A stretch of 64,000 nt of DNA from Candidatus Aenigmatarchaeota archaeon (GCA_039090665.1 JAWCSL010000002.1:12052-76051), one strand, 5' to 3'; shown: positions 24,754-55,665, numbered from the stretch's first letter. Translations and numbers: made by a program. Notes: generated from the sequence alone by a model not told the origin.

Positions 24754-25266
24754 ATGAAAGCTCAAATCAGTTTCGTTGAGTTTTTAACTTCAATAACAAT
24801 TTTTCTTGGTTTTACTGTATATATCGCTTTCCAAATTTCAACATTCATACCAAATTATCTCAATGAAATTAAAGCAGAAAGAATGAGATGTGAAGCTTTT
24901 CAACTTTCAGAATTATTGATAAATGATCCCGGAGATCCGGTAAATTGGTATCTCACTAATTTTAACAATGTAAAAAGATTGGGTCTTTTGGATGAAACGA
25001 AAAACAGAACAAACTTTCTATCTGAAAATAAAATTTTGGCGTTTGAAGGAAATTGTTCTAAAAACTATCAAGAAGTTAAGAGAAAATTGGAGTTAGACTA
25101 TGATTTTTCCTTAATTCTAAAAGATGGAAAATCCGGAGAAATTAAGATTAATTGTTATCCAAGTGCTACAATCAAAAGATACACGAACACAACTATAAGG
25201 AGAATAGTTGCTTATGAAAAAAATGGTGAAATAAGTTATGGCGAAATGTTATTGCAAGTTTGGTAA
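24754..25266 (+). CDS. pilin-like protein
   Basis: MKAQISFVEFLTSITIFLGFTVYIAF. Confidence 0.6.
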   Translation: MKAQISFVEFLTSITIFLGFTVYIAFQISTFIPNYLNEIKAERMRCEAFQLSELLINDPGDPVNWYLTNFNNVKRLGLLDETKNRTNFLSENKILAFEGNCSKNYQEVKRKLELDYDFSLILKDGKSGEIKINCYPSATIKRYTNTTIRRIVAYEKNGEISYGEMLLQVW

Positions 25267-34505: not shown

Positions 34506-34545
34506 ACTTAAAATTATTCTAACTTTTATATAAAATAAAATTGAT

Positions 34546-39152: not shown

Positions 39153-39851
39153 TCATCTGAACAATTTTTCTGTTGGATAAACAATTATTCCTTTGCCAGA
39201 CTTTATTTCAAATGGATGCGAGTCTGTGTCATGGTCTGTTGCTCTCATTTTTCTTATTGTTATTCCTCGAGGAGAGCCTGAAGAGTAAGATAACAATATT
39301 ATGCCATCTGAAGTGAACTCCTCTATTCCGAAAGATGAAATAGAATTAGAACCTTCTGGAATTTCGCAAGTGAGTAAAGCAGTGCAATTCAATTTCTTGA
39401 GTAGTTTATCTAACTCAAGCAAACTCCTTCTAATCTCTAATGGTCTTTCGAAGAAAAGGCTTATAACTGTTATGGGATCAATAACTACCCTTTCTGCACC
39501 TATTTTTTCAACACTGTTTTCTATCAAATTCTTGAATTTTTCAAAATCATAAATATCTGATTTAACAAAAAGCAGCTTTCCCTCTTTTTCCAATTTTTCC
39601 AAAGGCCAACCAAAAGTTAAGTTCATATACTTTTTTATTCTATCGACACTTTCTTCTAAAGATATGTACACGCCTTTTTCATTTTTTTCCAAAGCACCAT
39701 TCACCAAGAACTGTAAAGATAATATTGTCTTACCAGATCCAGGGGTACCTGAAACAAGAACAGTAGAGCCTTTTGGAAAACCTCCTTTGAGCAAGATATC
39801 CAAACCTTTTATACCTGAAGAAGTTCTTTCTATACCGTCAACTTCTTTCAT
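39153..39851 (-). CDS. KaiC/RadA-like RecA-superfamily ATPase (possibly FlaH/ArlH-like)
   Basis: Walker A SGTPGSGKTILSLQF and a Walker-B-like VVIDPIT; 232 aa, single domain. Confidence 0.6.
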   Translation of the reverse strand: MKEVDGIERTSSGIKGLDILLKGGFPKGSTVLVSGTPGSGKTILSLQFLVNGALEKNEKGVYISLEESVDRIKKYMNLTFGWPLEKLEKEGKLLFVKSDIYDFEKFKNLIENSVEKIGAERVVIDPITVISLFFERPLEIRRSLLELDKLLKKLNCTALLTCEIPEGSNSISSFGIEEFTSDGIILLSYSSGSPRGITIRKMRATDHDTDSHPFEIKSGKGIIVYPTEKLFR

Positions 39852-39886
39852 AATTTAATTTATTCCCCTAAGGTATAAGAATTAAT

Positions 39887-40474
39887 ATGGAGAAGTCGAT
39901 AGAGACCATAAAAGGTGAGAAAAATCTTAAAAAATTTGTCAAAAAACTTGAACCAAAAACTGTGGTTTTGTTCATCATTGATGCAAAAAAATATCATAAG
40001 ATACACCCAAAGCTCCTCCAAACTATAATAAAAGAAAAGTGTTTTGCTGGAATTTACATAACAATAAACAAACCTTACAGTACTTTGATAAAATACCTTA
40101 AAGAAAATAAAATAAACACAGACAATATTTTCTTTATTGATGCTATATCAAAGAGTGTTGGTGGAGAAATGAAGATGACAAAAGACTGTTTATTTATTCC
40201 ATCTCCTTCTCAACTAACTGATTTGGCAATAGCTCTAACACAAGCTCTAGAAAGTATGGAACATAAGGAAAACAAATTTATTTTTTTAGATTCTCTTTCA
40301 ACTTTGTTGATTTATAACTCTTTTGAAGTTGCGGCCAAGTTTGTTCATTTCGTAATCTCTAGGCTTAGATTGTTTGGGCTTGTTGGAATGATAATCTCAA
40401 TAGAAAAGCAAATAGACGAGAGAATGTTAAATATTTTAATAGAGATGTGTGATAAGGTGGTGGAAGTTAAATGA
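39887..40474 (+). CDS. degenerate KaiC/RecA-fold protein lacking a P-loop
   Basis: Retains the RecA-family FLDSLSTLL (Walker-B-like) but has no GxxxxGK[ST]; 195 aa; 4-nt overlap with the next gene. Confidence 0.4.
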   Translation: MEKSIETIKGEKNLKKFVKKLEPKTVVLFIIDAKKYHKIHPKLLQTIIKEKCFAGIYITINKPYSTLIKYLKENKINTDNIFFIDAISKSVGGEMKMTKDCLFIPSPSQLTDLAIALTQALESMEHKENKFIFLDSLSTLLIYNSFEVAAKFVHFVISRLRLFGLVGMIISIEKQIDERMLNILIEMCDKVVEVK

Positions 40475-40821
40475 TTGAAATCTTCTTTCAGATCTTGAGC
40501 TTGCTCAACTCCATTTTAGCTTTCATAACAGTCATTATTTTTGCTCGTTCTAACATTAAATTCACGAAGGGTGAGCTACAAGAAATAATCAATTATTTTG
40601 TTTGGGGAACAATATTCATGTTTGGTGGAATGATAGCTCAACTTGAAGTCGAGTTTTTAAATTTAGCTGGCACACCGATAGACATGATAAAATATTTCCT
40701 GTTTTTAGGAGGTTTCTCATACTACTTGCTTGCTTCCTTTAAGATTCATAAGATGTCAAAAGTTTTAGGCTTCGCTTCAGGAGAAATGCCTAAGAAACTT
40801 AAAAAAATCCTTAAATCTTAA
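40471..40821 (+). CDS. small membrane protein (3 TM, 116 aa)
   Basis: Hydrophobic segments only. Confidence 0.45.
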   Translation: MIEIFFQILSLLNSILAFITVIIFARSNIKFTKGELQEIINYFVWGTIFMFGGMIAQLEVEFLNLAGTPIDMIKYFLFLGGFSYYLLASFKIHKMSKVLGFASGEMPKKLKKILKS

Positions 40822-40846
40822 TTTCAAGGAACAGTTAATTTAGATT

Positions 40847-41257
40847 ATGAAAGCTCAAGTTGCACTTGAATATTTGATGATAATTTCTTTTGCTTTAATG
40901 GTTTTGTTACCTTATGCTCTTCATCTTCAAACAGTTTCTCAAAATTTGAGAGAAGATAACAATTTAGCTATAGCTTCAAATTCTCTACAAAAAATAGGTC
41001 AGGCAGCAGATTGGGTATTTTCTCAAGGCGAACCTGCAAAAATTACAATTTTAGTCCAAATTCCTGCTAATGTTGAAGAGATTTCTTTTGCCGGAAAAAT
41101 GATGAAATGGAAAGTTAGAACTAGTGCTGGTTTATCAGAAATTTACTACATTTCTTCAGCCAACTTGACGGGAAGTTTGCCTACCACTCCAGGCTACTAT
41201 AATTTATTGATTCAAGCTATGGGGAATGGGGTGAAAATAAGTGTCAGCCCAAGTTAG
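40847..41257 (+). CDS. pilin-like protein (class III signal peptide)
   Basis: MKAQVALEYLMIISFALMVLL. Confidence 0.6.
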   Translation: MKAQVALEYLMIISFALMVLLPYALHLQTVSQNLREDNNLAIASNSLQKIGQAADWVFSQGEPAKITILVQIPANVEEISFAGKMMKWKVRTSAGLSEIYYISSANLTGSLPTTPGYYNLLIQAMGNGVKISVSPS

Positions 41258-41630
41258 CCTAGAATTCATTTCTTTACTTTCACTTCTTTTCATCTTTTTA
41301 TTTCTCACAATCTATCACAGCTCCAATCTTTATATTCAAACAAACAGAGCAAAAGTATTAAAAGAAGCTCAAACAATAAGCGATCAAATTGCTTCTGAAA
41401 TAAACTTGGCTCTTAAAGCAGGGAGTGGCTATTCAAGAATTTTCACTATCCCCCAAAAAATTTCTAATGCAATAGATTACAACATAACAGTAAAGGATTA
41501 TCTTGTGATTTTGAGTTGGAATAATGGTTTTGTCCAATCCACAATTTTGACAAGAAACATAAGTGGCGAAATCTTGAAAGGTGAGAACTTGATAAGAAAT
41601 TTAAATGGTGTAGTTTATGTTAACCAATAA
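41241..41630 (+). CDS. pilin-like protein
   Basis: MSAQVSLEFISLLSLLFIFLFL. Confidence 0.55.
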   Translation: MSAQVSLEFISLLSLLFIFLFLTIYHSSNLYIQTNRAKVLKEAQTISDQIASEINLALKAGSGYSRIFTIPQKISNAIDYNITVKDYLVILSWNNGFVQSTILTRNISGEILKGENLIRNLNGVVYVNQ

Positions 41631-42099
41631 AGCTCAAGTTGTCACTTATGATTTTTTCATAGCTTTAGCTATTTTCTTTTTAGTTATGGGTCTGGTGATG
41701 AGTATTTGGTATTATACAGTGATTCAAGCGGAAGAAAGTATGGAAAAGAGATTGGCTTATAATAACTTGCTTTCTGCATCTCAAGTTTGGTTCAAAGAGG
41801 GATTCCCAAAATATTGGGATGCTGAGAATGTAGTTGAGCTAGGCTTGTCGAATGATGGAAAAATAAATGAGACAAAAATAGAAATGCTTAAAAATTCTGT
41901 TGGGTATTCTAAAGCAAGCCTTCTGCTTAATCTTGGTAATTTTAACTTTTGTTATGAAGTTTATGACAAATCCGGAAATTTAATTTTTCGCTTTCCTCAA
42001 AATTTAGATCTTAGTTCAGCAAGAAACATATACAAGATAGAAAGAATTGGAATACTGAATGAGCAACCTGTGAAAGTGAGGACTTTGATATGGAATTGA
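41617..42099 (+). CDS. pilin-like protein
   Basis: MLTNKAQVVTYDFFIALAIFFLVMGLV. Confidence 0.55.
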   Translation: MLTNKAQVVTYDFFIALAIFFLVMGLVMSIWYYTVIQAEESMEKRLAYNNLLSASQVWFKEGFPKYWDAENVVELGLSNDGKINETKIEMLKNSVGYSKASLLLNLGNFNFCYEVYDKSGNLIFRFPQNLDLSSARNIYKIERIGILNEQPVKVRTLIWN

Positions 42100-44024
42100 A
42101 AGGTTTAGCTTTTACAACAGACATTTTAATAGGCTTAACTTTAGTTATATCTTTAATCCCTCTCTTTTATTTTGTAATTGAGTCAAATTATCCAGAAACT
42201 TCTTTTCAGTCTTTGACCTACCAGGCAAATGATTTGATTGAAATACTAGCAAATTTGAAAGCAAGCTCTTTTTCAAACACATCTACAATTTCCATGCTCT
42301 TATCAAATAAAATAATTTCAGAAACTGATTTAAACAAAACTTTGTTAGATTTAATAGGAACATTCTGGTATTCTGGAAACAAAAGCATCGCTTCAAATAT
42401 AACAAAAGAAGTCCTGGAAGGTTTGACTGAAAAATGCTTCAGCCTCCAAACTCACAACGAAACAATCTATTCATCTTGCTCATCTAATCCAAAAACAGTT
42501 TCTGTTGCTTACAGGTTGGAATCTGGCTATGAAATCGGAAAGCCGGTTTCTGGTTATGTAGCAAGGGCATGGGCAACAAAAGTGAGAAAAAACACCACTC
42601 AAATAATTATTTTCTATCCAGAAGGCTCAGGTTGGACTGCTCAAAGGTTGGAAATCACGAAAAACTTTGCTTTACCAACAAACATAACAATCTACAATGC
42701 AACTTTGTATGTTTCAATCCATTTCGGAACTTCCAAATCCCAAGCCCAATTCGAGCAACTTAAAATCAATGATGTTCAAAAGAAAAATGATATAAAATGG
42801 CTTTACATGCAAGAAGAAGCTTTTGGGTGGGAAATTACTACAGCAGCTTACGGTGTTGTTGATGTTACAAATGAAATTCAACCGGGAAACAATTCAATTT
42901 ACTTGGTAATAGGAACACCAAACTACCATTCTCACATTCATCCAGGCATGAGACTTATAGTAACTTATAGCTTAAGCCAAGAACTTTCAACAGGTAACAA
43001 AAGTTTCAAGAAGAGATATTATTTCGATAATGTGGTAGGAAGGACAGGTGCTTGGTCGATGGTCTCTTTCTACATTCCAGAAAATGCAAAAAACGCGAAA
43101 GCTCAACTTCATCTCAAAACTTTAGAGGTTGATGATACTGTAGATTTGTTTGGAAGAAATTCTAGCGATGTGATAATTTACTTCAATTCAGGTCACATCT
43201 TTTATAAAGATGGATATTGTTCTTCTCAAAATTGTTATCCTTCATGCAGCATCTCAGGCCTTTATTACAGGAATTGTCGAAAAGTTGGTGTTATGAATCC
43301 TGAACTCTTCTTGAATCTCACAAACAACTTGACGATAGGAACAAACGTGATTTCAGTGTATTTGAACAATTATGGTGATGTTCATTGGGGAGATCAAAAG
43401 GCAATAATTTATTCAGATCCCCTGAATGATCCTGAAGGATCTTCTTATGTTGAAGTCTATTATGAAATGGAAGAACCAACTTTCAATTATGGTGAGATTG
43501 ATATAACTAGAGAAATGTTGTTTGGAGGCTCTGCTAGCAACCCAAAAACTTTCAATTTCACTCTAAACCAGAGCCAGAATAAAGTGATAGAGGCTTTTGT
43601 TCATATAGCCCAAGGTTTCAGTAGTATGGTTAACGCTTCAATAAACAATTTCTGGATCTTCACTTCACCTTCTATTCGTGTGGTTCCTGAAAATGTGTAT
43701 GTTTATCCCAACAAATTAAGTGTTGGAAAAAATTCAATAAGGCTTGTGGACTTTCAAGAAGGTGGCTCTATTTCAGGAACAAACTACATCTTACCATGGT
43801 CTTCTTTTGAATATACATACCTTGTTAAAGGTTTAGTTGGTTATGGAAATGTTTTCAATTCTTCTCAACTTGCAATAGAAGATGCTAAGCAAAGGCTTAT
43901 TTCTCAAATGGGTGAAGAGGGAATAAAACCGGAAGGGATTCAAGTTGATTCTCAATCCGTTCAGGGTTTGAGATGGCTTTGGGGTCCAAGCTTGTTCAAA
44001 ATCTTGGTATGGGAGAGAGAATGA
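42090..44024 (+). CDS. large pilus-associated extracellular protein (644 aa) with a pilin-like N-terminus
   Basis: MELKGLAFTTDILIGLTLVISLI then a sequon-rich, beta-rich domain. Confidence 0.5.
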   Translation: MELKGLAFTTDILIGLTLVISLIPLFYFVIESNYPETSFQSLTYQANDLIEILANLKASSFSNTSTISMLLSNKIISETDLNKTLLDLIGTFWYSGNKSIASNITKEVLEGLTEKCFSLQTHNETIYSSCSSNPKTVSVAYRLESGYEIGKPVSGYVARAWATKVRKNTTQIIIFYPEGSGWTAQRLEITKNFALPTNITIYNATLYVSIHFGTSKSQAQFEQLKINDVQKKNDIKWLYMQEEAFGWEITTAAYGVVDVTNEIQPGNNSIYLVIGTPNYHSHIHPGMRLIVTYSLSQELSTGNKSFKKRYYFDNVVGRTGAWSMVSFYIPENAKNAKAQLHLKTLEVDDTVDLFGRNSSDVIIYFNSGHIFYKDGYCSSQNCYPSCSISGLYYRNCRKVGVMNPELFLNLTNNLTIGTNVISVYLNNYGDVHWGDQKAIIYSDPLNDPEGSSYVEVYYEMEEPTFNYGEIDITREMLFGGSASNPKTFNFTLNQSQNKVIEAFVHIAQGFSSMVNASINNFWIFTSPSIRVVPENVYVYPNKLSVGKNSIRLVDFQEGGSISGTNYILPWSSFEYTYLVKGLVGYGNVFNSSQLAIEDAKQRLISQMGEEGIKPEGIQVDSQSVQGLRWLWGPSLFKILVWERE

Positions 44025-44986
44025 AAGGAATATTTTTCAGTTCGATGATAATTTTCTTAATAACTTGCTTATTCATATTTTTTTCTATTCAGAGATCTAT
44101 GCTATCTTTTTATTCCTCTCAAAGGGCAATTGAAAACAGGGTAGAAGCCATGATCAAATTTTATGAAAGTGTAGTTTATGATTCAAGAAAATCTATGGAA
44201 ATTACAGCACAAAGGGCAACTTGCTCTGCAATAAATTATGTAGTCACAACAGGTTCTCCTTTACAATCTTCAAATGAAACTATAGCAGAGCTCATACTTC
44301 AAGGTACAATTAATTCTGAGCCTCAAGGGCTAATGGAAGCATCTACCGTGAAAGATTGGGAAGATAGTATAGAATACTTGGGAACTCTTCAAGGGTTTAG
44401 GACTAGTGTTGATATAAGAGATTTGTTGATAGAGCCTGAAGATAGTTATCATCTCTCCATTTCTTACACTATTTTTGTAGAGCTTTATGATGATAACATC
44501 AAAACAAACCTTACAAAAAACTCAAGAGAAAAAATAATTATGAGCATAGAAAATATGGAAGATCCTCTTTATCCACTGAACACTTTAGGCAGAATAGTAA
44601 ATATAATAAGACCAAGTCCACATTGGCTCAACTACTCTAGTGAAGACACTTCAAATTTGAAGGACGATTTAGAAAATTCTTACTATCATCCTAGCTTATA
44701 TGGAGCAAGTTTTCTGGATAGGCTTGAAGGCAAGTTCTTCGTTCAAGAAAAATACTTCAAACCAAACCCAATCGGACTGGAAAGTTTTGTCAATAAAGAC
44801 AAAATCCTCAGTGCAGGCTTGCCGATAGACGCTTACGCTACAAATATAGATTATCTTTACTTCTCAAAGAGTGGTGTAGATGCTTATTCTATTTCAGGAA
44901 TGCCTTCTAATTTTAGATTAGATAATGAGACGAGTCTAGAAGGGAAGACCCACCTTCAAATATACAATGTCACGGTGATTGAATGA
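44021..44986 (+). CDS. pilus-associated protein with pilin-like N-terminus (about 321 aa)
   Basis: Likely start MKGIFFSSMIIFLITCLFIFF at 44021 (4-nt overlap, atga); the tracked ORF 43973 start is less plausible. Confidence 0.5.
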   Translation: MKGIFFSSMIIFLITCLFIFFSIQRSMLSFYSSQRAIENRVEAMIKFYESVVYDSRKSMEITAQRATCSAINYVVTTGSPLQSSNETIAELILQGTINSEPQGLMEASTVKDWEDSIEYLGTLQGFRTSVDIRDLLIEPEDSYHLSISYTIFVELYDDNIKTNLTKNSREKIIMSIENMEDPLYPLNTLGRIVNIIRPSPHWLNYSSEDTSNLKDDLENSYYHPSLYGASFLDRLEGKFFVQEKYFKPNPIGLESFVNKDKILSAGLPIDAYATNIDYLYFSKSGVDAYSISGMPSNFRLDNETSLEGKTHLQIYNVTVIE

Positions 44987-45720
44987 AATTAAAATATAAA
45001 ATTTCACTCATAGCCTTGATGTTAATAATATTGAGTTCCCTAATCTTGGGTCCAAAAGAGTTTAAACAAGCTTTTTTTCAATATTTTGAGAGAGACAAGG
45101 GAGAAGAAAGCACTTCAACTCAAAATTTAACTCAAAGTCAAACTGGCCAAACGAGCGAGACTAATTACTCCACAAGTCCACCCCAAGAAGGTGAAGGAGG
45201 TGCTGGGGAAACAAGCAAAGAAGAAGAACAAGCAGCAAAAGCAATAACCCTTGAAATCACAGACATTTGTTCAGGAAAGCTTGATCTATTCACTATTTCA
45301 GAAGGTGCTACCAAATGCTTGAACAAAAAATATCCATATCAAATAATCCTTGAAAAAAATTCAACTCATTTGACAACAAGTTTTTATGGTTTAAGCGGGT
45401 TTGAAGAAAGCTATGAGCTGAACGAAACTATTCTAATCTTCTTCATCTTTGCTGAGGATGTAGCGAGCGTGAGCCATGAGATTCAATCTTTCAGTTTGGA
45501 AGGGGGTCAAGACTTCAGTTTGGGTCAATATTATCTCCACACAATCTGGGAAAGAGATGCTGTTGGAAATTTAGTGATCTCAAAGATGATAGCAATTTTG
45601 CCTTTGCAAGTAAACGGCAATATTATGAGCAGTGATTGGAAAGAGCTTAAATTCTATCTAAATATACCTAACAAAACTTATTATTTGGGCAACCTTTGGG
45701 TCTTAGTGAAAGAAAAATAA
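44983..45720 (+). CDS. secreted protein with an N-terminal TM/signal and an acidic S/T/Q-rich linker (245 aa)
   Basis: MKLKYKISLIALMLIILSSLILG, then ...STSTQNLTQSQTGQTSETNYSTSPPQEGEGG.... Confidence 0.5.
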   Translation: MKLKYKISLIALMLIILSSLILGPKEFKQAFFQYFERDKGEESTSTQNLTQSQTGQTSETNYSTSPPQEGEGGAGETSKEEEQAAKAITLEITDICSGKLDLFTISEGATKCLNKKYPYQIILEKNSTHLTTSFYGLSGFEESYELNETILIFFIFAEDVASVSHEIQSFSLEGGQDFSLGQYYLHTIWERDAVGNLVISKMIAILPLQVNGNIMSSDWKELKFYLNIPNKTYYLGNLWVLVKEK

Positions 45721-45730
45721 AAGAAAAAAG

Positions 45731-46141
45731 CTAAGACGCTCCATGTAAAGTTGCATTAACACTGCTCTCTATACCGCTAGCAACATCTATGAAGGTTATT
45801 TTCACTTCTACATCTCCAGCAAAGCAACCACTGCAAGGTATGGAAAGTCTTGATTGTGGTTTTCCATTTATGGGTATTTCAAAGATGTTTGAACCTTTTG
45901 AAGTATCAACTCGTGTAACATTTATTTCTCTTGGTCCTACAATCACCGAAAGGGTATTAGCACCATGATAGTCATAGGTAATTGCTGCGCCAGGCGGGAA
46001 ACATGGACTACAAGGTCCACCAACACCACCGCCAGGCAATTTGAAAATACCCATTGCATATAAAGCTGCAACCACTGCAATTACTATCAAGATTGCCCAT
46101 CCATATGTCATCAAAAACTCAAGGGCTGCTTGTGCTTTCAT
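45731..46141 (-). CDS. archaeal type IV pilin (candidate major pilin)
   Basis: Canonical MKAQAALEFLMTYGWAILIVIAVVAALYAMGIF class III signal; 136 aa with Gly-rich and Cys-containing regions. Confidence 0.7.
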   Translation of the reverse strand: MKAQAALEFLMTYGWAILIVIAVVAALYAMGIFKLPGGGVGGPCSPCFPPGAAITYDYHGANTLSVIVGPREINVTRVDTSKGSNIFEIPINGKPQSRLSIPCSGCFAGDVEVKITFIDVASGIESSVNATLHGAS

Positions 46142-46172: not shown

Positions 46173-47168
46173 CTATAGAGTTGCTGCTGGGACAAGGAAG
46201 CCTATGAGGCTTGAGAGAACAAGTCTTGCTATGAAATAGATTGTTAGGTTGATTGTCAAGAGTAAGGGAATGTATTTCAAACCAGCTTTTTCCTTCCCCT
46301 CTTGCAACAAACCTATGAGCAAGCTGCCAAAAATCGATGAAAAAATTAAAGTTAACAAACAATAAGCTCTGATGAAATCTGAAGAAACTTTAACTACACC
46401 AAGCTTCAAGCTTCCTATGGTGGTGTAGCTTGCAGCTTCCTCTATTCTCAGCTTGCTTCCTATTGTGCTCATGGTCTCAACCAAATAGGAAGAAAATGCA
46501 AATAGGACAGGAGAAGCAAAACCCACGGCTATGAAGATGAAAATGGCATACATTCCAACTTGTGCTGCTATCTCTTTTTTCAAGAGCTTAAGCTCTCTTA
46601 TGTCTTCAGCCGTTTGCTCGAGTAAGCTTGCTATTTCTCCCCCCTTTCTCATACCTTCAACTATCAAGTTGAAAGTCCTGTTTATTATTTTAGACTTAAT
46701 TTTCTTTCCCAAAGAAAGCAAAGCATCTTCCAAAGCTTCACCAGCTATTGCTTTTGTGGCAGCCATCTTAATCTCTTTTTCCAAAACGCCAAACTCTGGT
46801 CTGGCAGAATAAAGTAAGGCCTTGTCTGGGGTTAAACCAGAGCGAATGTTTGCCGCCATTAGTTGCAGAGCATCGGGAAGAACAGATTCTGCAAAGCTTC
46901 CCCTCTTATCACCTATCAATATTATAATGAGATCAATTATCAATTGAATTCCAATGAAAGTTAAAGGAATCAACAGCAACACAAACCATCCAAAAACAAA
47001 GATAAAAGGAAGCAACAAGAATGAAAATGCAAGAGAGTAAAGAAAAGATAAGGACAAGAACTTTTCTATTTTCATCTCAATTCCAGCATACTCTAAATTC
47101 TGCTCTAACCATTTCACATACTTCTTGGGATAAATCCACCTTATTCTTCTATAAGCTCTTTCTATCAT
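46173..47168 (-). CDS. FlaJ/TadC-like platform membrane protein
   Basis: Polytopic with a cytoplasmic helical domain; 4-nt overlap with the upstream paralog. Confidence 0.65.
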   Translation of the reverse strand: MIERAYRRIRWIYPKKYVKWLEQNLEYAGIEMKIEKFLSLSFLYSLAFSFLLLPFIFVFGWFVLLLIPLTFIGIQLIIDLIIILIGDKRGSFAESVLPDALQLMAANIRSGLTPDKALLYSARPEFGVLEKEIKMAATKAIAGEALEDALLSLGKKIKSKIINRTFNLIVEGMRKGGEIASLLEQTAEDIRELKLLKKEIAAQVGMYAIFIFIAVGFASPVLFAFSSYLVETMSTIGSKLRIEEAASYTTIGSLKLGVVKVSSDFIRAYCLLTLIFSSIFGSLLIGLLQEGKEKAGLKYIPLLLTINLTIYFIARLVLSSLIGFLVPAATL

Positions 47169-48043
47169 ACTTCCACACTTGGTCTTCTACTTTTAACCAT
47201 TCCTATGAGCATAACTTGAAAAACAGCAACAACAAACAAAATCAAAAAGAATATCGTCTCTGGAACTTGTATGCCAGCAAAAGTAGAGAAAATTATGAGA
47301 AAAGTTATTCCAAGAGTAGGTAAAATTACTGTCAGCATCAAGTACATTAGAGCTAGTGGGCTGAGTTGAGAGCCATACTTCCTTATCTTCACTTTCTGCT
47401 CTTCTGAAAGATTTTGGGCTATGATGTTGAGTGTATTTCCCAAATCACTTCCTGCTCTTAAGCTGTTGACTATTTGCCAAATAACCCTCTTGAAACCGAC
47501 ATTCGGAACTCTAAAAGCAAGTTCTTCTAAAGCTTGGGTTTCTTCCTTTCCTGTTGCTATTTCTTTAACACATTTTTCAAATTCTTCCGAAACAGAGCCA
47601 TAATTTCCTTTCGAAACAGAAACCAAAGAATCAAAAATTGAAACTCCTGACTTGATTTGAATGAACAAATGCCTTATAGCAAACAAAAGATTTTTTTCTA
47701 TGTCTCTGTCTTTTCTTGAAAGCAAGAGGCTTGGATAAAAGCTGATGTAATTGAAGACAACCACAGATATCAAAAGAGAGAAGACGAGCGAAAGTAAGAG
47801 TAGATTTTTCCCAGCTACCAATCCGAGAATTAGGAAGATTGAAAAAACCAAGAAAAACCAAAAGACAGAAGAAAAAATGGCTATTGCCAAATACTCTCTG
47901 TCTTTCAAGTTTATTTCAGCTTGAATCAACTTCTGGGCAAGGAAAGGATTCAGTTTGACAAGTCTGCTCGATAGAAATAAAAACGGTCTTGAAAGTTTCA
48001 AAACCTTTTGAACTGGAAACGGAACAAATGGTATTCTTTTCAT
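47165..48043 (-). CDS. FlaJ/TadC-like platform membrane protein
   Basis: Paralogous architecture; 4-nt overlap with the ATPase gene. Confidence 0.65.
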   Translation of the reverse strand: MKRIPFVPFPVQKVLKLSRPFLFLSSRLVKLNPFLAQKLIQAEINLKDREYLAIAIFSSVFWFFLVFSIFLILGLVAGKNLLLLSLVFSLLISVVVFNYISFYPSLLLSRKDRDIEKNLLFAIRHLFIQIKSGVSIFDSLVSVSKGNYGSVSEEFEKCVKEIATGKEETQALEELAFRVPNVGFKRVIWQIVNSLRAGSDLGNTLNIIAQNLSEEQKVKIRKYGSQLSPLALMYLMLTVILPTLGITFLIIFSTFAGIQVPETIFFLILFVVAVFQVMLIGMVKSRRPSVEV

Positions 48044-49551
48044 TCAAACCAACTTTTTATCACTTTCTCCACACTTTCTTTATTTTCAACAGCTTTAACC
48101 AATTTCTCAGGTGAAGAATAATAAATTGCTATGAGCCTTCCAAGCTTGTTCAAATCTTTAACTTGATTTTCAACAAACCATTTCAATATCCTTACTTTTT
48201 CCTCCACATTTTTTTTGATTTCTTGTTCAGTCATACCTGTGTGCATGCCGATCTCTTCCACAATTCTCAAACTATCATTCTCTCTTTCAATTTCATCTTT
48301 CACAGGCTTCCATCTGTAGAGAGTGTTCAATTGCGGGCCCTGTTTTTCGTTTCCTGGCAAAATTTCACTCAGTTGAAACATCCTTCTTATTCCTAACCTT
48401 CTATCCCTGAAAGCAACTGCAATTAAGTGCAAAGCCTCTATCACACTTTCCGGCACATTTATTGGTGGGTTTATTAATCTTTTCAAGGCTTGCTCTGCTG
48501 TATCAGCATGCAAAGTAGCATAAACTGAATGGCCTGTGTGCATGGCTTCAAAAAGGACTTCTGCTTCTCTAGCTCTTCTTATTTCACCAACTATTATCCT
48601 ATCAGGCCTCATTCTCAAACTGTTTACAAGCAGGCTGAGCATGCTGACTTCTCCCAAACCTTCGGGATTTGGTTCTCTTGTTGTCAAAGGTACCCAATGT
48701 AAAAAATCAGCCAATTGTAACTCGCGCGTGTCTTCAATAGAAACTACCCTTTGATTTGGTGGGATAAAACTCATGAAAACATTCAGCAAAGAAGTTTTTC
48801 CGCTTGCTGTACCACCAGCTACAATCATATTCATCTCATACTGGATAGCAAGCCAAATTAAAGCAGCCACTTCATAATTCAAAGTTTTGTTCTCTATGAA
48901 ATCCACTATTGTCCATGGTGATCTTCTGAATTTTCTTATTGTTATTGTATTTCCATGAGTTGAAATAGGGAACAAAGTTGCATTGACTCTATCTCCAGTC
49001 GGTAAGTGAGCATCCATGAGCGGGTTGAGAAGCGTGATTTGTCTTCCAACTTTTCTCCCTATATTATTAGCATAATTCAATATCTCGCTTTCTTGCTCGA
49101 TTCTTATATTAGTTTTAAGCCAACCATACTTCTTATGATAAACCCACACGGGCTCTTTAGAGCTGTTAATTACAACTTCTTCCAAGTTTGGGTCTGCAAG
49201 CAAGAACTCAATCTTTCCCAAACCAAACATTTCTTGTATAAGAGATCCAATCAAATACTTTTGAGTGCCCTCATCAACAAAAGGCATCTCTTTCTTGAAA
49301 ATTTCCATTCCTTTTTCAAAAAATTTTCTCTTCAAGTTTTCTATTGAAGTTACATCCATGAGTTCAGCTGGCTTGATTGGAATTTCGGTCAAGAGCATTG
49401 TCCTGATTTTTTCCAGAAGGACAGAAGTGCCTGCAGCTATTTCTGGAAGCTTAAGCTCATAGATGAGAACGAAATCAGAAGTTTTTTTTATTGTGACAGA
49501 AGCTTCTATTCCTTCCGAGCTAACTTTGTAGCTCTCAAACTTTTCACTCAT
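48040..49551 (-). CDS. FlaI/TadA/GspE-family secretion ATPase
   Basis: Walker A VAGGTASGKTSLLNV, GEIRR motif, His box; 503 aa. Confidence 0.85.
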   Translation of the reverse strand: MSEKFESYKVSSEGIEASVTIKKTSDFVLIYELKLPEIAAGTSVLLEKIRTMLLTEIPIKPAELMDVTSIENLKRKFFEKGMEIFKKEMPFVDEGTQKYLIGSLIQEMFGLGKIEFLLADPNLEEVVINSSKEPVWVYHKKYGWLKTNIRIEQESEILNYANNIGRKVGRQITLLNPLMDAHLPTGDRVNATLFPISTHGNTITIRKFRRSPWTIVDFIENKTLNYEVAALIWLAIQYEMNMIVAGGTASGKTSLLNVFMSFIPPNQRVVSIEDTRELQLADFLHWVPLTTREPNPEGLGEVSMLSLLVNSLRMRPDRIIVGEIRRAREAEVLFEAMHTGHSVYATLHADTAEQALKRLINPPINVPESVIEALHLIAVAFRDRRLGIRRMFQLSEILPGNEKQGPQLNTLYRWKPVKDEIERENDSLRIVEEIGMHTGMTEQEIKKNVEEKVRILKWFVENQVKDLNKLGRLIAIYYSSPEKLVKAVENKESVEKVIKSWFE

Positions 49552-49579: not shown

Positions 49580-50323
49580 TCATTCTTGTTTTTTCATTTT
49601 CACAACAGGGCTTCCAATAGCAGGATAGTTTATCTCGACTATATCATGCTCTTCAAGAATTTTTGCCCAATTTTCAACCAAATTCTCTGGAGTGCTTAGT
49701 AGCTTGGAAAGTTTCTGGAGCTCGATTGGTCCTTCTTCCAGGATTTTTAACATTTCATCAATTTTTGTTGAGATAGTTTCCTTTATCTCTTGTTTTGGAG
49801 CCCATTTCAGCAAATCAGTTCTTGTTATTATTCCAACAAGTCTGCCTTTTTTATCAAGAACAAGAAGCCTTTTGATGTTGTATTTTTCCATTTTCTTCTT
49901 TGCTTCTTCCACGCTTTTATCTTCACGAATGCAAATTGGTTTTTTCATAACATCAGCAACTATTATTTTTTTGAGAACTTCTCTATCTTTATCTTCTATC
50001 TCTTCCAAGCTTCCTTTATTGATAATTTTCAAAATGTCAGTTTTGCTAATCTCACCTATAAAAAACCCTTTATCGAGGACAGGAGCACCTGAAATTTTCT
50101 TTTCTTTGAAAATTTCGAGAACTTCACACAAACTCATGTAAGGGCTAACAGAAATTATGTTTTTTGTCATGAGTTCTGAGACTATTATTTTTTTCTTCCC
50201 GGGTTTTAACTTTCTTTTGATTTTCACAATTCTTCTAATTTTTTTAACTTTCTTTTTACCTGCTTTTATTTTCTTCTTTTTCATTTTTTTCTTGAAAATT
50301 TTTAGGAACAAGTCAAGCACCAT
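49580..50323 (-). CDS. CBS-pair protein with a poly-Lys N-terminal tail and a C-terminal wHTH-like region
   Basis: KKKMKKKKIKAGKKKVKKIRRIVKIKRKLKPGKKK, then two CBS motifs, then a helical C-terminus. Confidence 0.6.
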   Translation of the reverse strand: MVLDLFLKIFKKKMKKKKIKAGKKKVKKIRRIVKIKRKLKPGKKKIIVSELMTKNIISVSPYMSLCEVLEIFKEKKISGAPVLDKGFFIGEISKTDILKIINKGSLEEIEDKDREVLKKIIVADVMKKPICIREDKSVEEAKKKMEKYNIKRLLVLDKKGRLVGIITRTDLLKWAPKQEIKETISTKIDEMLKILEEGPIELQKLSKLLSTPENLVENWAKILEEHDIVEINYPAIGSPVVKMKKQE

Positions 50324-50358: not shown

Positions 50359-51864
50359 TTACTTGAAAGTTTCCAGATCTTCAAACTTCCTTTTTTCATT
50401 TTCCATAAAACTGACAATTTCTTCTTCCAGTTTTTTACCTTTTTCTGATTTTTTGCTTTTTCTTTCCCTAACTTTAACTAGCAGAGGATAGTTTACGGCT
50501 TCACCAACAATTAAAGCTTCCCCAACTTTCAATCCTGGTAACATGTCCAAAACATCTTTTGTCACACCTTCGGAACTTTCTCCTATGTGTTTAATATCGT
50601 AAGGGTTGTTTATTCTCATGATTATATGAGTGTTGCATTGACTCAAGGCTGTAGTAGCAAGTCTTATAGGCCTTTGAGTTATTAAAACTAGACAAGCCCC
50701 AAATTTCCTTCCTTCTCTTGCTATTTGTTCTATCACATTTCTTGAAATTGCAGAAGCAGCTTCCTCTCCTTCCGGGCAGAATTGATGGCTTTCTTCAACA
50801 AAAAGAATAAAAGGTGGAATTTTTCTTTGTCTCCTTAAATCAAAAAGCTTTCTCGCAAAATAGGTTAAGATGATTTGTCTTTCTTTCAGATGAACAAAAT
50901 CAGAGAGATCAAAAACTGTAAGTTGACCAAGTTTTGCAACTTCTTCCAAGGAAGGTGAATCTATTTTACTGAACAATCCGGTTGAAGCCAACTCATAAAG
51001 CCAAGAGCTCAGAGCAGCTTTTGTTTTCGGGTTTATTTCACTTTTTTCTACAGCTTCAATTAGCTCGTCAAGATCATAAACTTTCTTTTCTTCTTGTAAT
51101 TTTTTGATTATTGGTGAAAGCTCTCTTCTTTGGACCAATGACATTTGTGGTATGAGCTCATTCATTAAACTTGGTGAAATTTTGTTAGCAGCTATAGAGA
51201 TTTTATCTTTTCCGTAAACTTTTGTTTTAGTTATATAGTTTTCATCTTCAGCAAACCCAATGTACTCACCGTGAGGATCGAAAACTATTATTGCAGGTTT
51301 TGCCTCATCTTTTCTATCTAGAATTTCTTCTATTAAAACAGAAGCCAAATAACTCTTACCAGCACCACTTATGGCCAAGATTGCTAAATGTTTTTGAAAA
51401 ACTCTTGTTAAATTCAATTTTACTTCAATTTCGTGTGCTTCCATTTTTCCAATATACAAGCCATTTTCATCTAATCCCAAAAATTCGGAAAGCAGTTTTT
51501 CATCAGCTTTGTAAACTTTTTCTCCAGGTGAAGGAGGAAAAGAAACTCTAAGTTGTTTACCATTTTCAAAAACCCCCAAAGGTATGGCTGAAGCTACAAG
51601 AAATTCCCATCTATCAGCTGGAAAAATTTCTTTGAGTCCTTTTCCACTTCTTTCATATTCTTTTACAGATTCTGCTCTCATGAAGTATCTGTTCATCCTG
51701 AAAATTTCAGCAACTCTTGCTATCAGTAAACCTTGTTCTGTTTTTAGCTGGACATACTCATTCTTCTTCACAGGAATTTTTTCTTCACTTTCATTTATTA
51801 CAAAAGAAAATTCACTGCTGTTCGGATCTTGCATGGTTGAGATTACAGTTCCAATTTCTTTCAT
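50359..51864 (-). CDS. herA: HerA-like DUF87 ATPase (FtsK/HerA-superfamily DNA translocase)
   Basis: N-terminal HAS-barrel-like region, Walker A AISGAGKSYLASV, Walker B ILFVEESHQF, LVLITQRP motif; 501 aa. Confidence 0.75.
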   Translation of the reverse strand: MKEIGTVISTMQDPNSSEFSFVINESEEKIPVKKNEYVQLKTEQGLLIARVAEIFRMNRYFMRAESVKEYERSGKGLKEIFPADRWEFLVASAIPLGVFENGKQLRVSFPPSPGEKVYKADEKLLSEFLGLDENGLYIGKMEAHEIEVKLNLTRVFQKHLAILAISGAGKSYLASVLIEEILDRKDEAKPAIIVFDPHGEYIGFAEDENYITKTKVYGKDKISIAANKISPSLMNELIPQMSLVQRRELSPIIKKLQEEKKVYDLDELIEAVEKSEINPKTKAALSSWLYELASTGLFSKIDSPSLEEVAKLGQLTVFDLSDFVHLKERQIILTYFARKLFDLRRQRKIPPFILFVEESHQFCPEGEEAASAISRNVIEQIAREGRKFGACLVLITQRPIRLATTALSQCNTHIIMRINNPYDIKHIGESSEGVTKDVLDMLPGLKVGEALIVGEAVNYPLLVKVRERKSKKSEKGKKLEEEIVSFMENEKRKFEDLETFK

Positions 51865-55633: not shown

Positions 55634-55665
55634 TTTTTAAATACATTTAAATAATTAGGATAAGT

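What the first reader, a model, noticed from the sequence alone, without database searches (positions are those of the whole stretch)
39153..45720. Plus-strand minor-pilin module led by a P-loop-less RecA-fold protein, divergent from a KaiC/FlaH-like ATPase across only 35 bp
A KaiC/RecA-like ATPase with an intact Walker A lies at 39153..39851 on the minus strand. Its divergent neighbour at 39887..40474 is a RecA-fold protein that keeps the DSLS Walker-B region but has lost the P-loop. That gene heads an eight-gene plus-strand string: a small membrane protein, three roughly 130-160-aa class-III-signal proteins, and three large proteins of 644, about 321 and 245 aa with pilin-like N-termini. The string converges on the herA-pilus operon across a 10-bp gap. 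Such a pairing of an active and a degenerate KaiC-like protein recalls FlaH/ArlH in archaella. No FlaF/G/X/CDE or single-chain FlaJ is recognisable here. The 35-bp divergent intergenic region at 39852..39886 is too short for two independent archaeal promoters.
Basis: partly seen in the sequence, partly recalled or inferred. Interest (0 to 1): 0.7.

Follow-up and report, generated by a model that had tools for sequence, protein, structure and literature searches.

The report
Pilus locus with KaiC/dead-KaiC module
This is one arm of a type IV pilus gene cluster of a tiny DPANN archaeon (Aenigmatarchaeota). An active KaiC ATPase, an ATPase-dead KaiC relative and a small membrane protein form an accessory module beside the pilus motor genes; each part is of a known kind, but I found no description of the three-part module or of its tie to one pilus type across DPANN.

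Summary
A single-domain KaiC ATPase (39153-39851, minus) diverges across 35 bp from an eight-gene plus-strand operon. That operon starts with a P-loop-less KaiC-fold protein (39887-40474), then a 3-TM protein, then six proteins with pilin-like N-termini. It converges on a pilin/T2SSF/T2SSF/T2SSE/CBS operon.

The P-loop-less protein belongs to Pfam DUF7504, a kind already named "iKaiC". Its predicted structure matches KaiC-family RecA folds. The KaiC is not ArlH/FlaH.

Comparison with 82 related loci, mostly from DPANN phyla, shows three things:
- iKaiC is almost always followed by one family of small membrane proteins that has no Pfam family.
- KaiC genes cluster within two genes of iKaiC.
- The nearby pilus ATPases belong to one conserved clade.

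Seven of seven KaiC homologues picked without regard to context also sit in pilus loci.

The 35-bp spacer is ordinary for this compact genome. The 644-aa protein is a pilin-anchored multi-beta-sandwich protein whose middle is replaced by a VWA domain in relatives, so it is probably an adhesin.

Best reading: a conserved KaiC/iKaiC/membrane-anchor regulatory module of a DPANN-type adhesion pilus. It is a new variant of a known kind, and the mechanism is inferred.

The parts
39153..39851 (-). Single-domain KaiC-family ATPase (232 aa), predicted active; monocistronic. Its stop lies 1 bp from the rad50 stop (convergent).
   Evidence: PF06745 at 1.5e-64. PDB KaiC 4.6e-65, PH0186 4.8e-44, FlaH only 1.2e-4. 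NCBIfam ArlH 46.9 bits against a cut-off of 215. Homologues lie in T4P loci in 7 of 7 cases.
39852..39886 (.). 35-bp divergent spacer, AATTTAATTTATTCCCCTAAGGTATAAGAATTAAT. It holds two TATA-like elements: 39854-39864 for the + operon and 39874-39881 (reverse complement) for KaiC. Each is centred about 26-27 nt from its start codon.
   Evidence: Sequence. In relatives with 58-141-bp spacers, a TATAAAAA element lies near the KaiC side and a TTTATAT element near the iKaiC side; in L050 (hand count) and L010 the KaiC-side element starts at offset 23-24 from the KaiC start, as here. Spacers of similar length occur elsewhere in the window. Promoter function is inferred, not shown.
39887..40474 (+). 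iKaiC: P-loop-less KaiC-fold pseudo-ATPase (195 aa), DUF7504 family; first gene of the operon.
   Evidence: PF24336 at 39.5 bits (cut-off 27); DUF835 at 30.4 bits; KaiC at 6.4e-4. No Walker A in any of 31 aligned family members. AF2 pLDDT 85, pTM 0.83. Foldseek top hits are PH0284, KaiC, PH0321, SSO2452 and FlaH.
40471..40821 (+). Small 3-TM membrane protein (116 aa), the conserved partner of iKaiC. Predicted cytoplasmic 'LSxG-like' loop, invariant G100-F101 after TM3, and a Lys-rich tail.
   Evidence: ATGA overlap with the iKaiC stop. 68 of 78 immediate downstream neighbours of iKaiC join one HMM family. Alignment A3. No Pfam family and no PDB relative.
40847..41257 (+). Pilin-like protein, 136 aa (MKA|QVALEYL...): candidate minor pilin.
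   Evidence: N-terminal motif and a single hydrophobic segment. N-terminus resembles the 136-aa pilin at 45731 (48% over 21 aa). Orthologues in L010, L011 and L043.
41241..41630 (+). Pilin-like protein, 129 aa (MSA|QVSLEF..., GTG start): candidate minor pilin.
   Evidence: Conserved in L010, L011 and L043. Some gene callers skip it.
41617..42099 (+). Pilin-like protein, 160 aa (MLTNKA|QVV...): candidate minor pilin.
   Evidence: Weak ComGE minor-pilin hit, E 0.0019, below cut-off.
42090..44024 (+). 644-aa pilin-anchored, beta-sandwich-rich protein (MELKG|LAF...): candidate pilus adhesin.
44021..44986 (+). 321-aa protein with a pilin-like N-terminus (MKG|IFF...). The start at 44021 is preferred over 43973.
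   Evidence: ATGA overlap with the 644 stop. Homologues follow the 644-type protein (L010, L011, L043) or, in Micrarchaeota T4P locus L008, the VWA-type large protein; L088 has a homologue upstream of its T2SSE operon.
44983..45720 (+). 245-aa protein with an N-terminal hydrophobic anchor and an acidic low-complexity linker. No clear class III cleavage motif.
   Evidence: Homologues only in close relatives.
45731..46141 (-). 136-aa pilin (MKA|QAALEFL...), last gene of the motor operon: candidate major pilin.
   Evidence: A T6 run on the minus strand follows directly after its stop.
46173..48043 (-). Two T2SSF platform genes (331 and 292 aa), i.e. a split TadB/TadC-like platform.
   Evidence: PF00482 at 4.8e-15 and 1.7e-19. 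They align to the C and N halves of ArlJ, far below cut-off.
48040..49551 (-). T2SSE-family pilus assembly ATPase (503 aa), of the clade that travels with iKaiC/KaiC.
   Evidence: PF00437 at 1.9e-34. FlaI model 302 bits against a cut-off of 550. 26 of 30 ATPases near iKaiC in other genomes score above 500 bits to it: 25 at 51-55% identity and the close relative L010 at 96%. They are about 35% identical to the window's other pilus ATPase.
49580..50323 (-). CBS-pair protein (247 aa) just upstream of the ATPase; a conserved accessory gene of this pilus type.
   Evidence: PF00571 at 8.3e-32. A CBS gene adjoins the ATPase in 20 of 30 related loci.
50359..51864 (-). HerA-like ATPase (501 aa). Adjacent, but probably not part of the pilus system.
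   Evidence: DUF87 and HAS-barrel. HerA models 173 bits, below cut-off. Not found beside the pilus operon in other lineages. mre11-rad50 lie on the other flank.

Best explanation
**What it is.** The region is the accessory arm of a DPANN-type archaeal type IV (adhesion) pilus locus.

**Shown**
- The motor operon (CBS protein, T2SSE ATPase, two T2SSF platform proteins, a pilin) faces an operon of three small pilin-like proteins and three larger pilin-anchored proteins.
- That second operon is headed by a two-gene cassette: a P-loop-less KaiC-fold protein (iKaiC, DUF7504) and a 3-TM membrane protein.
- An intact single-domain KaiC ATPase is transcribed divergently.
- The iKaiC/membrane-protein pair, its proximity to one or two KaiC genes, and its proximity to one specific clade of pilus ATPase are conserved across several DPANN phyla.

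**Inferred mechanism**
1. The membrane protein holds iKaiC at the cytoplasmic face through its conserved cytoplasmic loop and its FGF tail.
2. iKaiC cannot bind nucleotide and acts as an adaptor or pseudo-subunit for the KaiC hexamer.
3. KaiC's ATP-binding or autophosphorylation state sets whether the complex engages the pilus ATPase/platform, and so gates pilus assembly. This is functionally like ArlH acting on ArlI in the archaellum, without being ArlH.

**The rest of the operon.** The small pilin-like proteins would prime the fibre. The 644-aa beta-sandwich protein (VWA-bearing in relatives) would be displayed on the fibre as an adhesin, plausibly for attachment to a host cell or surface.
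For: - **Gene map and domains:**
- **iKaiC fold and loss of the P-loop:**
- **iKaiC/membrane-protein pairing:**
  - ATGA overlap in the window.
  - 62 of 82 loci have a small protein with two or more TMs directly downstream.
  - 68 of 78 downstream neighbours belong to one family.
  - The conserved motifs lie on the predicted cytoplasmic side.
  - Relatives exist with an N-terminal hydrophobic (apparently 2-TM, by reading of the sequences) domain fused to iKaiC.
- **KaiC linkage:**
  - KaiC makes up 14-18% of genes at distance 1-2 from iKaiC, against 1% or less at distance 5 or more.
  - Synteny persists from 93% down to about 31% identity.
- **Pilus linkage:**
  - T2SSE/F lie within 10 kb in 35 of 82 loci, many of them truncated.
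  - 29 of 30 nearby ATPases are closer to this locus's ATPase than to the window's second pilus ATPase.
  - 7 of 7 blind-sampled KaiC homologues sit in T2SSE/T2SSF loci. One (L096) lies between T2SSE and T2SSF in a single operon; another (L094) forms a co-directional KaiC-iKaiC-KaiC row, with the first two genes overlapping.
- **Precedents:**
  - KaiC-family ATPases are strongly associated with archaeal T4P loci (PMC4858521, section 16).
  - ArlH is a KaiC-like protein that acts on ArlI (PMC8978795).
- **Adhesin inference:**
Against: - No interaction, localisation, expression or phenotype data exist. Every mechanistic step is inference from gene order and folds.
- 20 of 98 iKaiC/membrane pairs have neither KaiC nor T2SSE/F within 10 kb. 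Iainarchaeota-type loci, for example, have housekeeping neighbours. The pair is therefore not strictly a pilus part.
- iKaiC domains occur fused to KaiB-like/V4R and WD40 domains elsewhere. That fits a general signalling adaptor as well as a motor part.
- The one KaiC-like protein beside archaellum genes with genetics, CirA, acts on transcription (PMC10983859).
- Neighbourhood counts rest on my own ORF calling and on phmmer with window proteins, and many contigs are short.
- No class III signal predictor could be run, and no prepilin peptidase gene lies in the window.
Confidence: 0.55

Rival explanations
1. Signalling hub rather than motor part. KaiC, iKaiC and the membrane protein form a membrane-linked sensor/transducer that sets expression of the pilus genes, or of broader surface and behaviour programmes, as CirA does for arl genes in Haloferax. 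There would be no physical contact with the pilus ATPase.
For: - CirA is a single-domain KaiC-like protein encoded divergently beside arl genes, and it lowers their transcription (PMC10983859).
- iKaiC domains are found as output or partner domains of response regulators (PMC5847659). They also occur fused to KaiB-like/V4R or WD40 domains.
- Some iKaiC/TM pairs occur without pilus genes nearby.
- The fully overlapping divergent promoters would allow reciprocal control (inference).
Against: - No DNA-binding domain is present in KaiC, iKaiC or the membrane protein.
- In some relatives KaiC sits inside the motor operon, between T2SSE and T2SSF (L096). That is more typical of a machine subunit.
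- The module tracks one ATPase clade closely.
Confidence: 0.3
2. The iKaiC/membrane-protein pair is an independent membrane module unrelated to pili. It sits at the head of the pilin operon only because this genome is very compact.
For: - 20 of 98 pairs lack KaiC and T2SSE/F within 10 kb.
- Iainarchaeota-type loci have housekeeping neighbours.
- Gene spacing is tight everywhere in the window.
Against: - T2SSE/F genes are enriched to 13-15% of genes at distance 2-4 from iKaiC, against 1-6% farther away.
- The nearby ATPases are one orthologous clade.
- The same layout recurs in Aenigmatarchaeota, Micrarchaeota, Woesearchaeota and Nanoarchaeota.
- Only a 25-bp gap separates the pair from the pilin genes here.
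Confidence: 0.1
3. The KaiC belongs with the DNA-repair genes. It would be an aRadC/RadB-like RecA paralogue working with the adjacent Mre11-Rad50 (and HerA), and its position next to the pilus genes would be coincidental.
For: - Its stop codon lies 1 bp from the rad50 stop, and herA lies on the far side of the locus.
- It matches SSO2452, a solved Sulfolobus KaiC-family structure, at 8.6e-25. From my own knowledge, members of this group have been called aRadC.
Against: - Rad50 adjacency is seen only in this organism's close relatives (L010). In other Aenigmatarchaeota the upstream neighbour is an 8-TM protein (L012, L024) or unannotated ORFs (L011), whereas iKaiC adjacency is kept.
- 7 of 7 homologues sit in pilus loci.
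- RadA/RadB models score far lower than KaiC models.
Confidence: 0.05

Closest known systems
ArlH/FlaH of the archaellum (KaiC-like ATP-binding protein that acts on the motor ATPase ArlI)
   Same: A single-domain KaiC/RecA-fold protein encoded with a FlaI-type ATPase and a FlaJ-type platform. Foldseek lists FlaH structures 4yds and 4wia among the hits for iKaiC. In L096 the KaiC sits directly after the ATPase gene and before the platform genes in one operon.
   Different: Not an orthologue: ArlH model 46.9 bits against a cut-off of 215, and FlaH 1.2e-4 against KaiC 4.6e-65. There are no ArlF/G/X/CDE proteins and no archaellins; the platform is split and the ATPase falls below the FlaI cut-off. 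Here the system has two proteins (active plus dead) and a membrane partner.
KaiC-family ATPases linked to archaeal type IV pili (arCOG01171/01174/01175; Makarova, Koonin and Albers 2016, PMC4858521) and the KaiC gene in the Pyrobaculum calidifontis flagellar-like pilus locus (PMC10334743)
   Same: A KaiC ATPase encoded in or beside T2SSE/TadC operons and proposed as a regulator. The present KaiC clade shows the same link in 7 of 7 sampled homologues.
   Different: The passages of those papers that I read do not mention an ATPase-dead KaiC paralogue with a small membrane partner, nor a CBS protein, as fixed companions. The term DPANN does not occur in the 2016 survey; it covered only a few nanoarchaeal genomes. 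arCOG membership could not be tested here.
[quoted passage not shown] 2018, PMC5847659)
   Same: The 195-aa protein passes the DUF7504 threshold, nearly passes DUF835, lacks Walker A and has the KaiC fold.
   Different: In that paper iKaiC appears as a domain fused to receiver or other signalling domains. Here it is a stand-alone protein translationally coupled to a dedicated 3-TM protein and tied to a pilus locus.
CirA of Haloferax volcanii (PMC10983859)
   Same: A single-domain KaiC-like ATPase with an intact Walker A, transcribed divergently from filament-machinery genes.
   Different: CirA flanks archaellum genes and acts on transcription. No iKaiC or membrane partner is described with it. 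Orthology was not tested.
TadG / PilY1-type VWA adhesins and minor-pilin priming complexes of bacterial Tad and type IVa pili
   Same: A set of small pilin-like proteins plus a large protein with a pilin-like N-terminus. Relatives of the 644-aa protein carry VWA domains in the same position. PMC4858521 notes that VWA proteins such as TadG are pilus components.
   Different: The window's copy has beta-sandwich domains instead of VWA. No whole-chain structural match exists (TM-score normalised to the query at most 0.17). A tip or adhesin role is inferred only.

Membership tests
ArlH/FlaH (archaellum) | Scores above the curated cut-off of the ArlH equivalog model (NF052589, 215 bits) | tested here: not met
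   KaiC scores 46.9 bits; iKaiC has no hit. Against the PDB, FlaH 4yds scores 1.2e-4 while KaiC scores 4.6e-65.
ArlH/FlaH (archaellum) | Encoded in an arl cluster with ArlI, single-chain ArlJ, ArlF/ArlG and archaellins | tested here: not met
   The ATPase scores 302 bits against a FlaI cut-off of 550. There are two separate T2SSF genes. None of the ten neighbours scanned hits an archaellin or ArlF/G/X/CDE model.
KaiC superfamily ATPase (PF06745) | Pfam gathering score; Walker A, catalytic Glu pair and Walker B | tested here: met
   The 232-aa protein scores 217.9 bits against 26.6. GTPGSGKT, E66-E67 and D125 are present (sequence; alignment).
Bona fide circadian KaiC | Two tandem KaiC domains (about 500 aa); equivalog cut-offs NF006799 (408 bits) and TIGR02655 (546 bits) | tested here: not met
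   A single domain of 232 aa, scoring 171.9 and 120.7 bits.
iKaiC / DUF7504 (PF24336) | Passes the Pfam gathering score | tested here: met
   39.5 bits against 27. Precomputed PF24336 annotation on nearly all of the 120 listed homologues.
iKaiC / DUF7504 (PF24336) | KaiC/RecA fold without the nucleotide-binding P-loop | tested here: met
   AF2 pLDDT 85. Foldseek matches PH0284 (E 4.9e-7, TMq 0.68), PH0321 (TMq 0.72), KaiC and FlaH. No Walker A in 31 aligned members, and the catalytic Glu pair is replaced by N61-K62.
iKaiC / DUF7504 (PF24336) | Actually unable to bind or hydrolyse ATP | not testable with these tools
   Needs biochemistry.
Archaeal type IV pilus system | T2SSE-family assembly ATPase plus T2SSF/TadC-type platform | tested here: met
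   PF00437 at 1.9e-34; PF00482 twice.
Archaeal type IV pilus system | Pilins with class III signal peptides: a short basic n-region, G/A at -1, then a hydrophobic helix | tested here: inconclusive
   By eye and a simple script, four of seven proteins fit K-[GA]|[QL] followed by a hydrophobic stretch. Two are near fits (MSA|Q, MKG|IFF) and the 245-aa protein does not fit. No class III-aware predictor was available, and no Pfam or NCBIfam pilin model was passed.
Archaeal type IV pilus system | Prepilin peptidase (PibD/FlaK/EppA type) | tested here: inconclusive
   None among the window proteins scanned. The rest of the genome is not available. Such genes are often encoded elsewhere (PMC8978795).
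aRadC/RadB-type repair paralogue | Conserved association with recombination/repair genes; passes RadB/RadA models | tested here: not met
   RadB models score 28-32 bits against cut-offs of 172-278. Rad50 adjacency is not conserved.

The most novel reading that the evidence does not exclude
KaiC, the ATPase-dead iKaiC and the 3-TM protein would together form a previously unrecognised membrane-anchored cytoplasmic ring of a DPANN-wide type IV pilus machine. It would be a non-archaellar counterpart of the ArlH (plus ArlX-like anchor) layer. That would make this pilus type a living intermediate on the path from adhesion pili to the archaellum motor, with the pseudo-ATPase as a fixed structural subunit rather than a signalling adaptor.
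Probability: 0.15. Interest if true: 0.7.

Novelty: new variant of a known kind. Interest (0 to 1): 0.42.

Why it matters
DPANN archaea are thought to depend mostly on physical contact with hosts (PMC12710345, PMC11104419), and pili are leading candidates for making that contact.

A pilus type with a conserved KaiC / dead-KaiC / membrane-anchor module across Aenigmatarchaeota, Micrarchaeota, Woesearchaeota and Nanoarchaeota offers three things:
- A concrete handle on how these cells might switch attachment on and off.
- A first functional context for a large family of uncharacterised proteins: DUF7504, with 3648 cluster representatives, and its partner membrane-protein family, which has no Pfam entry.
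- A test case for how KaiC-like proteins came to be attached to type IV filament motors, a question raised for the origin of the archaellum (PMC10334743).

It is not a new kind of system. KaiC-pilus linkage and iKaiC domains are both in the literature.

Tried and rejected
1. **Direct similarity between the two KaiC-like proteins.** BLASTP found nothing significant. The relationship shows only through profiles and structure.
3. **Pfam/NCBIfam on the pilin-like and large proteins.** No hits passed cut-off.
4. **Pfam and PDB searches for the membrane-partner family.** Nothing found.
5. **Local promoter consensus and preferred TATA-to-ATG distance from all 26 spaced genes of the window.** No clear peak emerged in this AT-rich sequence. 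The promoter reading of the 35-bp spacer therefore stays an inference.
6. **The sigma-70/terminator scan** is not applicable to archaea and was ignored.
7. **The key paper on KaiC hubs and inactivated KaiC** (Makarova, Galperin, Koonin, mBio 2017) is not held in the library. I cannot exclude that it already mentions this gene pair.
8. **Neighbours of iKaiC/TM pairs that lack pilus genes** (Iainarchaeota-type loci) were read for clues. By reading of the sequences they look like housekeeping genes (e.g. a HAD-type hydrolase); no family search was run on them.
9. **The repair-gene reading of KaiC** was considered and rejected on synteny.

Full report
**1. What is in the sequence**

The window is a low-GC (about 33%) archaeal contig. 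The same locus occurs in GCA_039000055.1, and the proteins are named 'Candidatus Aenigmatarchaeota archaeon' by NCBI.

The ORF map matches the finding exactly:
- mre11 (35527-36804) and rad50 (36776-39151) on the plus strand.
- A 232-aa gene at 39153-39851 on the minus strand.
- A 35-bp spacer.
- Eight tightly packed plus-strand genes: 39887-40474, 40471-40821, 40847-41257, 41241-41630, 41617-42099, 42090-44024, 44021-44986 and 44983-45720.
- A 10-bp gap.
- A minus-strand row: a 136-aa pilin, two T2SSF genes, a T2SSE ATPase, a CBS-pair protein and a HerA-like ATPase.

Three junctions in the plus operon are ATGA start/stop overlaps.

**2. The two KaiC-like proteins**

*The minus-strand protein* is a clear KaiC-family ATPase:
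- PF06745 at 1.5e-64.
- Walker A (GTPGSGKT), the catalytic Glu pair and Walker B are all present.
- It is single-domain, so it is not a circadian KaiC.
- It is not ArlH/FlaH. The ArlH model gives 46.9 bits against a cut-off of 215. Solved FlaH matches at 1.2e-4, whereas KaiC matches at 4.6e-65 and the single-domain PH0186 at 4.8e-44.

*The plus-strand 195-aa protein* is an ATPase-dead relative:
- It passes Pfam DUF7504 (39.5 bits against 27), nearly passes DUF835, and hits KaiC weakly.
- In an alignment of 31 family members down to 27% identity, none has a Walker A. The KaiC 'EE' position is N-K-P-Y, while the Walker-B-like FLDSLSTLLIYN is nearly invariant.
- A profile of the family finds only KaiC, FlaH and PH0284 in the PDB, all weakly.
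- The AF2 model is confident (pLDDT 85, pTM 0.83). Its first core strand runs directly into the following helix, with no P-loop.
- Foldseek returns KaiC-family RecA folds: PH0284, KaiC, PH0321, SSO2452 and FlaH, at E 5e-7 to 1e-5 and TM up to 0.72.

It is, however, a member of a kind already named iKaiC (PMC5847659), and the family is large: 3648 representatives at E <= 1e-3 among 1.84 billion proteins.

**3. The conserved neighbourhood**

A pattern scan of one genome per species with the family alignment returned 80 loci. They come from:
- DPANN lineages: Aenigmatarchaeota, Micrarchaeota, Iainarchaeota/Diapherotrites, Woesearchaeota, Nanoarchaeota, Altiarchaeales and Undinarchaeota.
- Methanosarcinales, Methanocellales, ANME-2 and Methanoperedens.

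I called ORFs in these loci and labelled them by phmmer with the window's proteins. Four results stand out.

(a) *iKaiC has a fixed membrane partner.*
- In 62 of 82 loci, iKaiC is followed on the same strand, within 120 bp, by a small protein with at least two TM segments.
- 68 of 78 such immediate neighbours converge to a single HMM family.
- The family has three conserved TM segments, a conserved positively charged 'LSxG' loop, an invariant Gly-Phe just after TM3 and a Lys-rich tail. By the positive-inside rule, both conserved motifs face the cytoplasm (inference).
- The family has no Pfam entry and no solved relative.

(b) *KaiC genes cluster next to iKaiC.*
- KaiC makes up 14-18% of genes at distance 1-2 from iKaiC, against 1% or less at distance 5 or more.
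- The usual layout is one or two KaiC genes divergent from iKaiC.
- The window's KaiC has adjacent counterparts from 93% down to about 31% identity.

(c) *Pilus motor genes lie close by.*
- T2SSE/T2SSF genes lie within 10 kb in 35 of 82 loci, many of which are truncated.
- The recurrent pattern is <KaiC <KaiC iKaiC> TM> <T2SSF <T2SSF <T2SSE <CBS <pilins.

(d) *The nearby ATPases form one clade.*
- 26 of 30 score above 500 bits to the ATPase at 48040-49551. Of these, 25 are 51-55% identical and the close relative L010 is 96% identical.
- They are only about 35% identical to the second pilus ATPase of the same window at 21111-22949, which has no KaiC, iKaiC or CBS neighbour.
- A CBS gene adjoins the ATPase in 20 of the 30.

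**4. A test from the KaiC side**

To test this:
- I took seven homologues of the KaiC at 43-57% identity. They were chosen only for contig length and spread of identity.
- All seven lie beside T2SSE and/or T2SSF genes (L090-L096).
- Three of them also have a DUF7504 gene adjacent.
- In L096 the KaiC sits between T2SSE and T2SSF in one operon. In L094 the order is KaiC-iKaiC-KaiC, co-directional, with the first two genes overlapping.
- By contrast, the Rad50 adjacency seen in the window is not kept in other Aenigmatarchaeota. That argues against a repair role.

**5. The pilin-like proteins**

- All seven candidates have a single N-terminal hydrophobic segment and no later one. The seven are the six in the plus operon and the 136-aa pilin ending the motor operon.
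- Four fit the K-[G/A]|[Q/L] pattern I recall for archaeal class III signals. Two are near fits, and the 245-aa protein does not fit.
- No curated pilin model is passed, as is usual for fast-evolving archaeal pilins (PMC6393860).
- The 644-aa protein has 120 homologues, mostly in Aenigmatarchaeota and Woesearchaeota.
- Its model is confident (pLDDT 91). It shows an N-terminal TM helix, a helical region up to about residue 109, and then beta-sandwich domains.
- Its N-terminal (1-195) and C-terminal (546-644) modules are conserved in relatives whose middle part is a VWA domain instead.
- In the Micrarchaeota pilus locus L008 a VWA protein occupies the same position, upstream of a homologue of the 321-aa protein.
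- A constant pilin-like anchor with a swappable binding middle is what an adhesin displayed on a pilus would look like. This is inference.

**6. The 35-bp spacer**

- The spacer holds two TATA-like elements: TTTAATTTATT at 39854-39864 on the plus strand, and TATAAGAA at 39874-39881, read on the minus strand as TTCTTATA. Each is centred 26-27 nt from the start codon it would serve.
- In Woesearchaeota-type relatives with 58-141-bp spacers, a TATAAAAA element lies near the KaiC side and a TTTATAT element near the iKaiC side. In L050 (hand count) and L010 the KaiC-side element starts at offset 23-24 from the KaiC start, as here.
- So each gene probably has its own promoter and a leaderless or near-leaderless message. 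In this organism the two promoters occupy the same 35 bp, so they could not be loaded at the same time (inference; no transcript data).
- The short spacer is not a peculiarity of this locus. Divergent pairs of unrelated genes in the window have spacers of 40 bp (34506-34545) and 32 bp (55634-55665).
- A window-wide search for a preferred TATA-to-ATG distance gave no clear signal.

**7. How it most likely works**

*Shown:* a pilus motor operon, a pilin/adhesin operon, and a KaiC / iKaiC / membrane-protein trio whose mutual proximity and tie to one ATPase clade are conserved across phyla.

*Inferred:*
- The 3-TM protein anchors iKaiC at the membrane. Supporting points are translational coupling, the conserved cytoplasmic motifs, and relatives with an N-terminal hydrophobic (apparently 2-TM, by reading of the sequences) domain fused to iKaiC.
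- iKaiC serves as a nucleotide-free partner for the KaiC hexamer.
- KaiC's nucleotide or phosphorylation state then controls the pilus ATPase, as ArlH does for ArlI (PMC8978795).

*Main rival:* the trio acts upstream on expression, as CirA does for arl genes (PMC10983859). iKaiC fusions to KaiB-like/V4R and WD40 domains, and iKaiC/TM pairs without pilus neighbours, keep that option open.

**8. Comparison with what is known, and novelty**

Already published:
- KaiC-family ATPases as frequent companions of archaeal type IV pilus loci (PMC4858521).
- A KaiC gene in the Pyrobaculum calidifontis pilus locus, noted as unusual (PMC10334743).
- iKaiC domains (PMC5847659).

What I did not find described:
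- The stand-alone DUF7504 iKaiC with its dedicated small membrane partner.
- The fixed association of that pair with KaiC, a CBS protein and one ATPase clade across DPANN.

The paper most likely to mention it (Makarova et al., mBio 2017) could not be read. I therefore rate this as a new variant of a known kind, of moderate interest.

Noticed in passing
window 20098-26542 (+): A second, separate type IV pilus locus: pilin-like 196 aa and 141 aa, a T2SSE ATPase of 612 aa (21111-22949), T2SSF of 289 and 313 aa, and pilin-like 170 aa and 434 aa. It has no KaiC, iKaiC or CBS neighbour. Its ATPase is only 38% identical to the one at 48040-49551.
   Followed up: partly
L091 4120-11604 (JGI 3300037598, Ga0314843_0001711): A pilus locus of a relative holds, besides KaiC and a DUF7504 iKaiC, two Roadblock/LC7 proteins and a 373-aa fusion of a KaiC domain with a small Ras/Arf-like GTPase. 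This recalls the MglA/MglB polarity module that steers bacterial type IV pili.
   Followed up: no
window 35527-39151 and 50359-51864: mre11-rad50 and a HerA-like ATPase are separated by the whole 11-kb pilus locus, and no NurA gene was seen beside them. The HerA-like protein also hits the CedD DNA-translocating ATPase model (104 bits, far below cut-off). I could not decide whether it serves repair or works with the pilus.
   Followed up: partly
window 30233-30697 and 31562-32026: An exact 465-bp direct duplication inside the gene for a 1142-aa Cys-rich secreted protein (29166-32594). It is either a very recent in-gene duplication or an assembly artefact.
   Followed up: partly
window 34506-34545 and 55634-55665: Two more very short divergent spacers (40 and 32 bp) between unrelated genes. 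The first has a single near-palindromic TTTTATATAAAA that could serve both directions.
   Followed up: partly
L095 6108-8722 (GCA_043797285.1) and L044 3334: Pilus ATPases of about 1000 aa in relatives. In L095 the T2SSE gene is interrupted by an intein with a LAGLIDADG endonuclease domain. The 1017-aa L044 ATPase was not examined for an intein.
   Followed up: no
proteins P0372, P0410, P0477, P0492, P0466 (other organisms): Fusions of the DUF7504 iKaiC domain: KaiB-like + V4R + iKaiC; iKaiC + WD40 propeller; and an N-terminal hydrophobic (apparently 2-TM, by reading of the sequences) domain + iKaiC.
   Followed up: partly
window 56275-59157 (-): A 960-aa protein with a signal sequence, dozens of N-x-S/T sequons, a Thr-rich linker and a C-terminal TM anchor. 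It looks like an S-layer or surface glycoprotein.
   Followed up: no
PDB 3bs4 (PH0321), found with model mc9f1b76d6c97: The best TM-score match of iKaiC (0.72) is an uncharacterised Pyrococcus protein crystallised 'in complex with an unknown peptide'. This hints that such KaiC-like folds can hold a peptide, which would fit docking on the conserved tail of the membrane partner.
   Followed up: no
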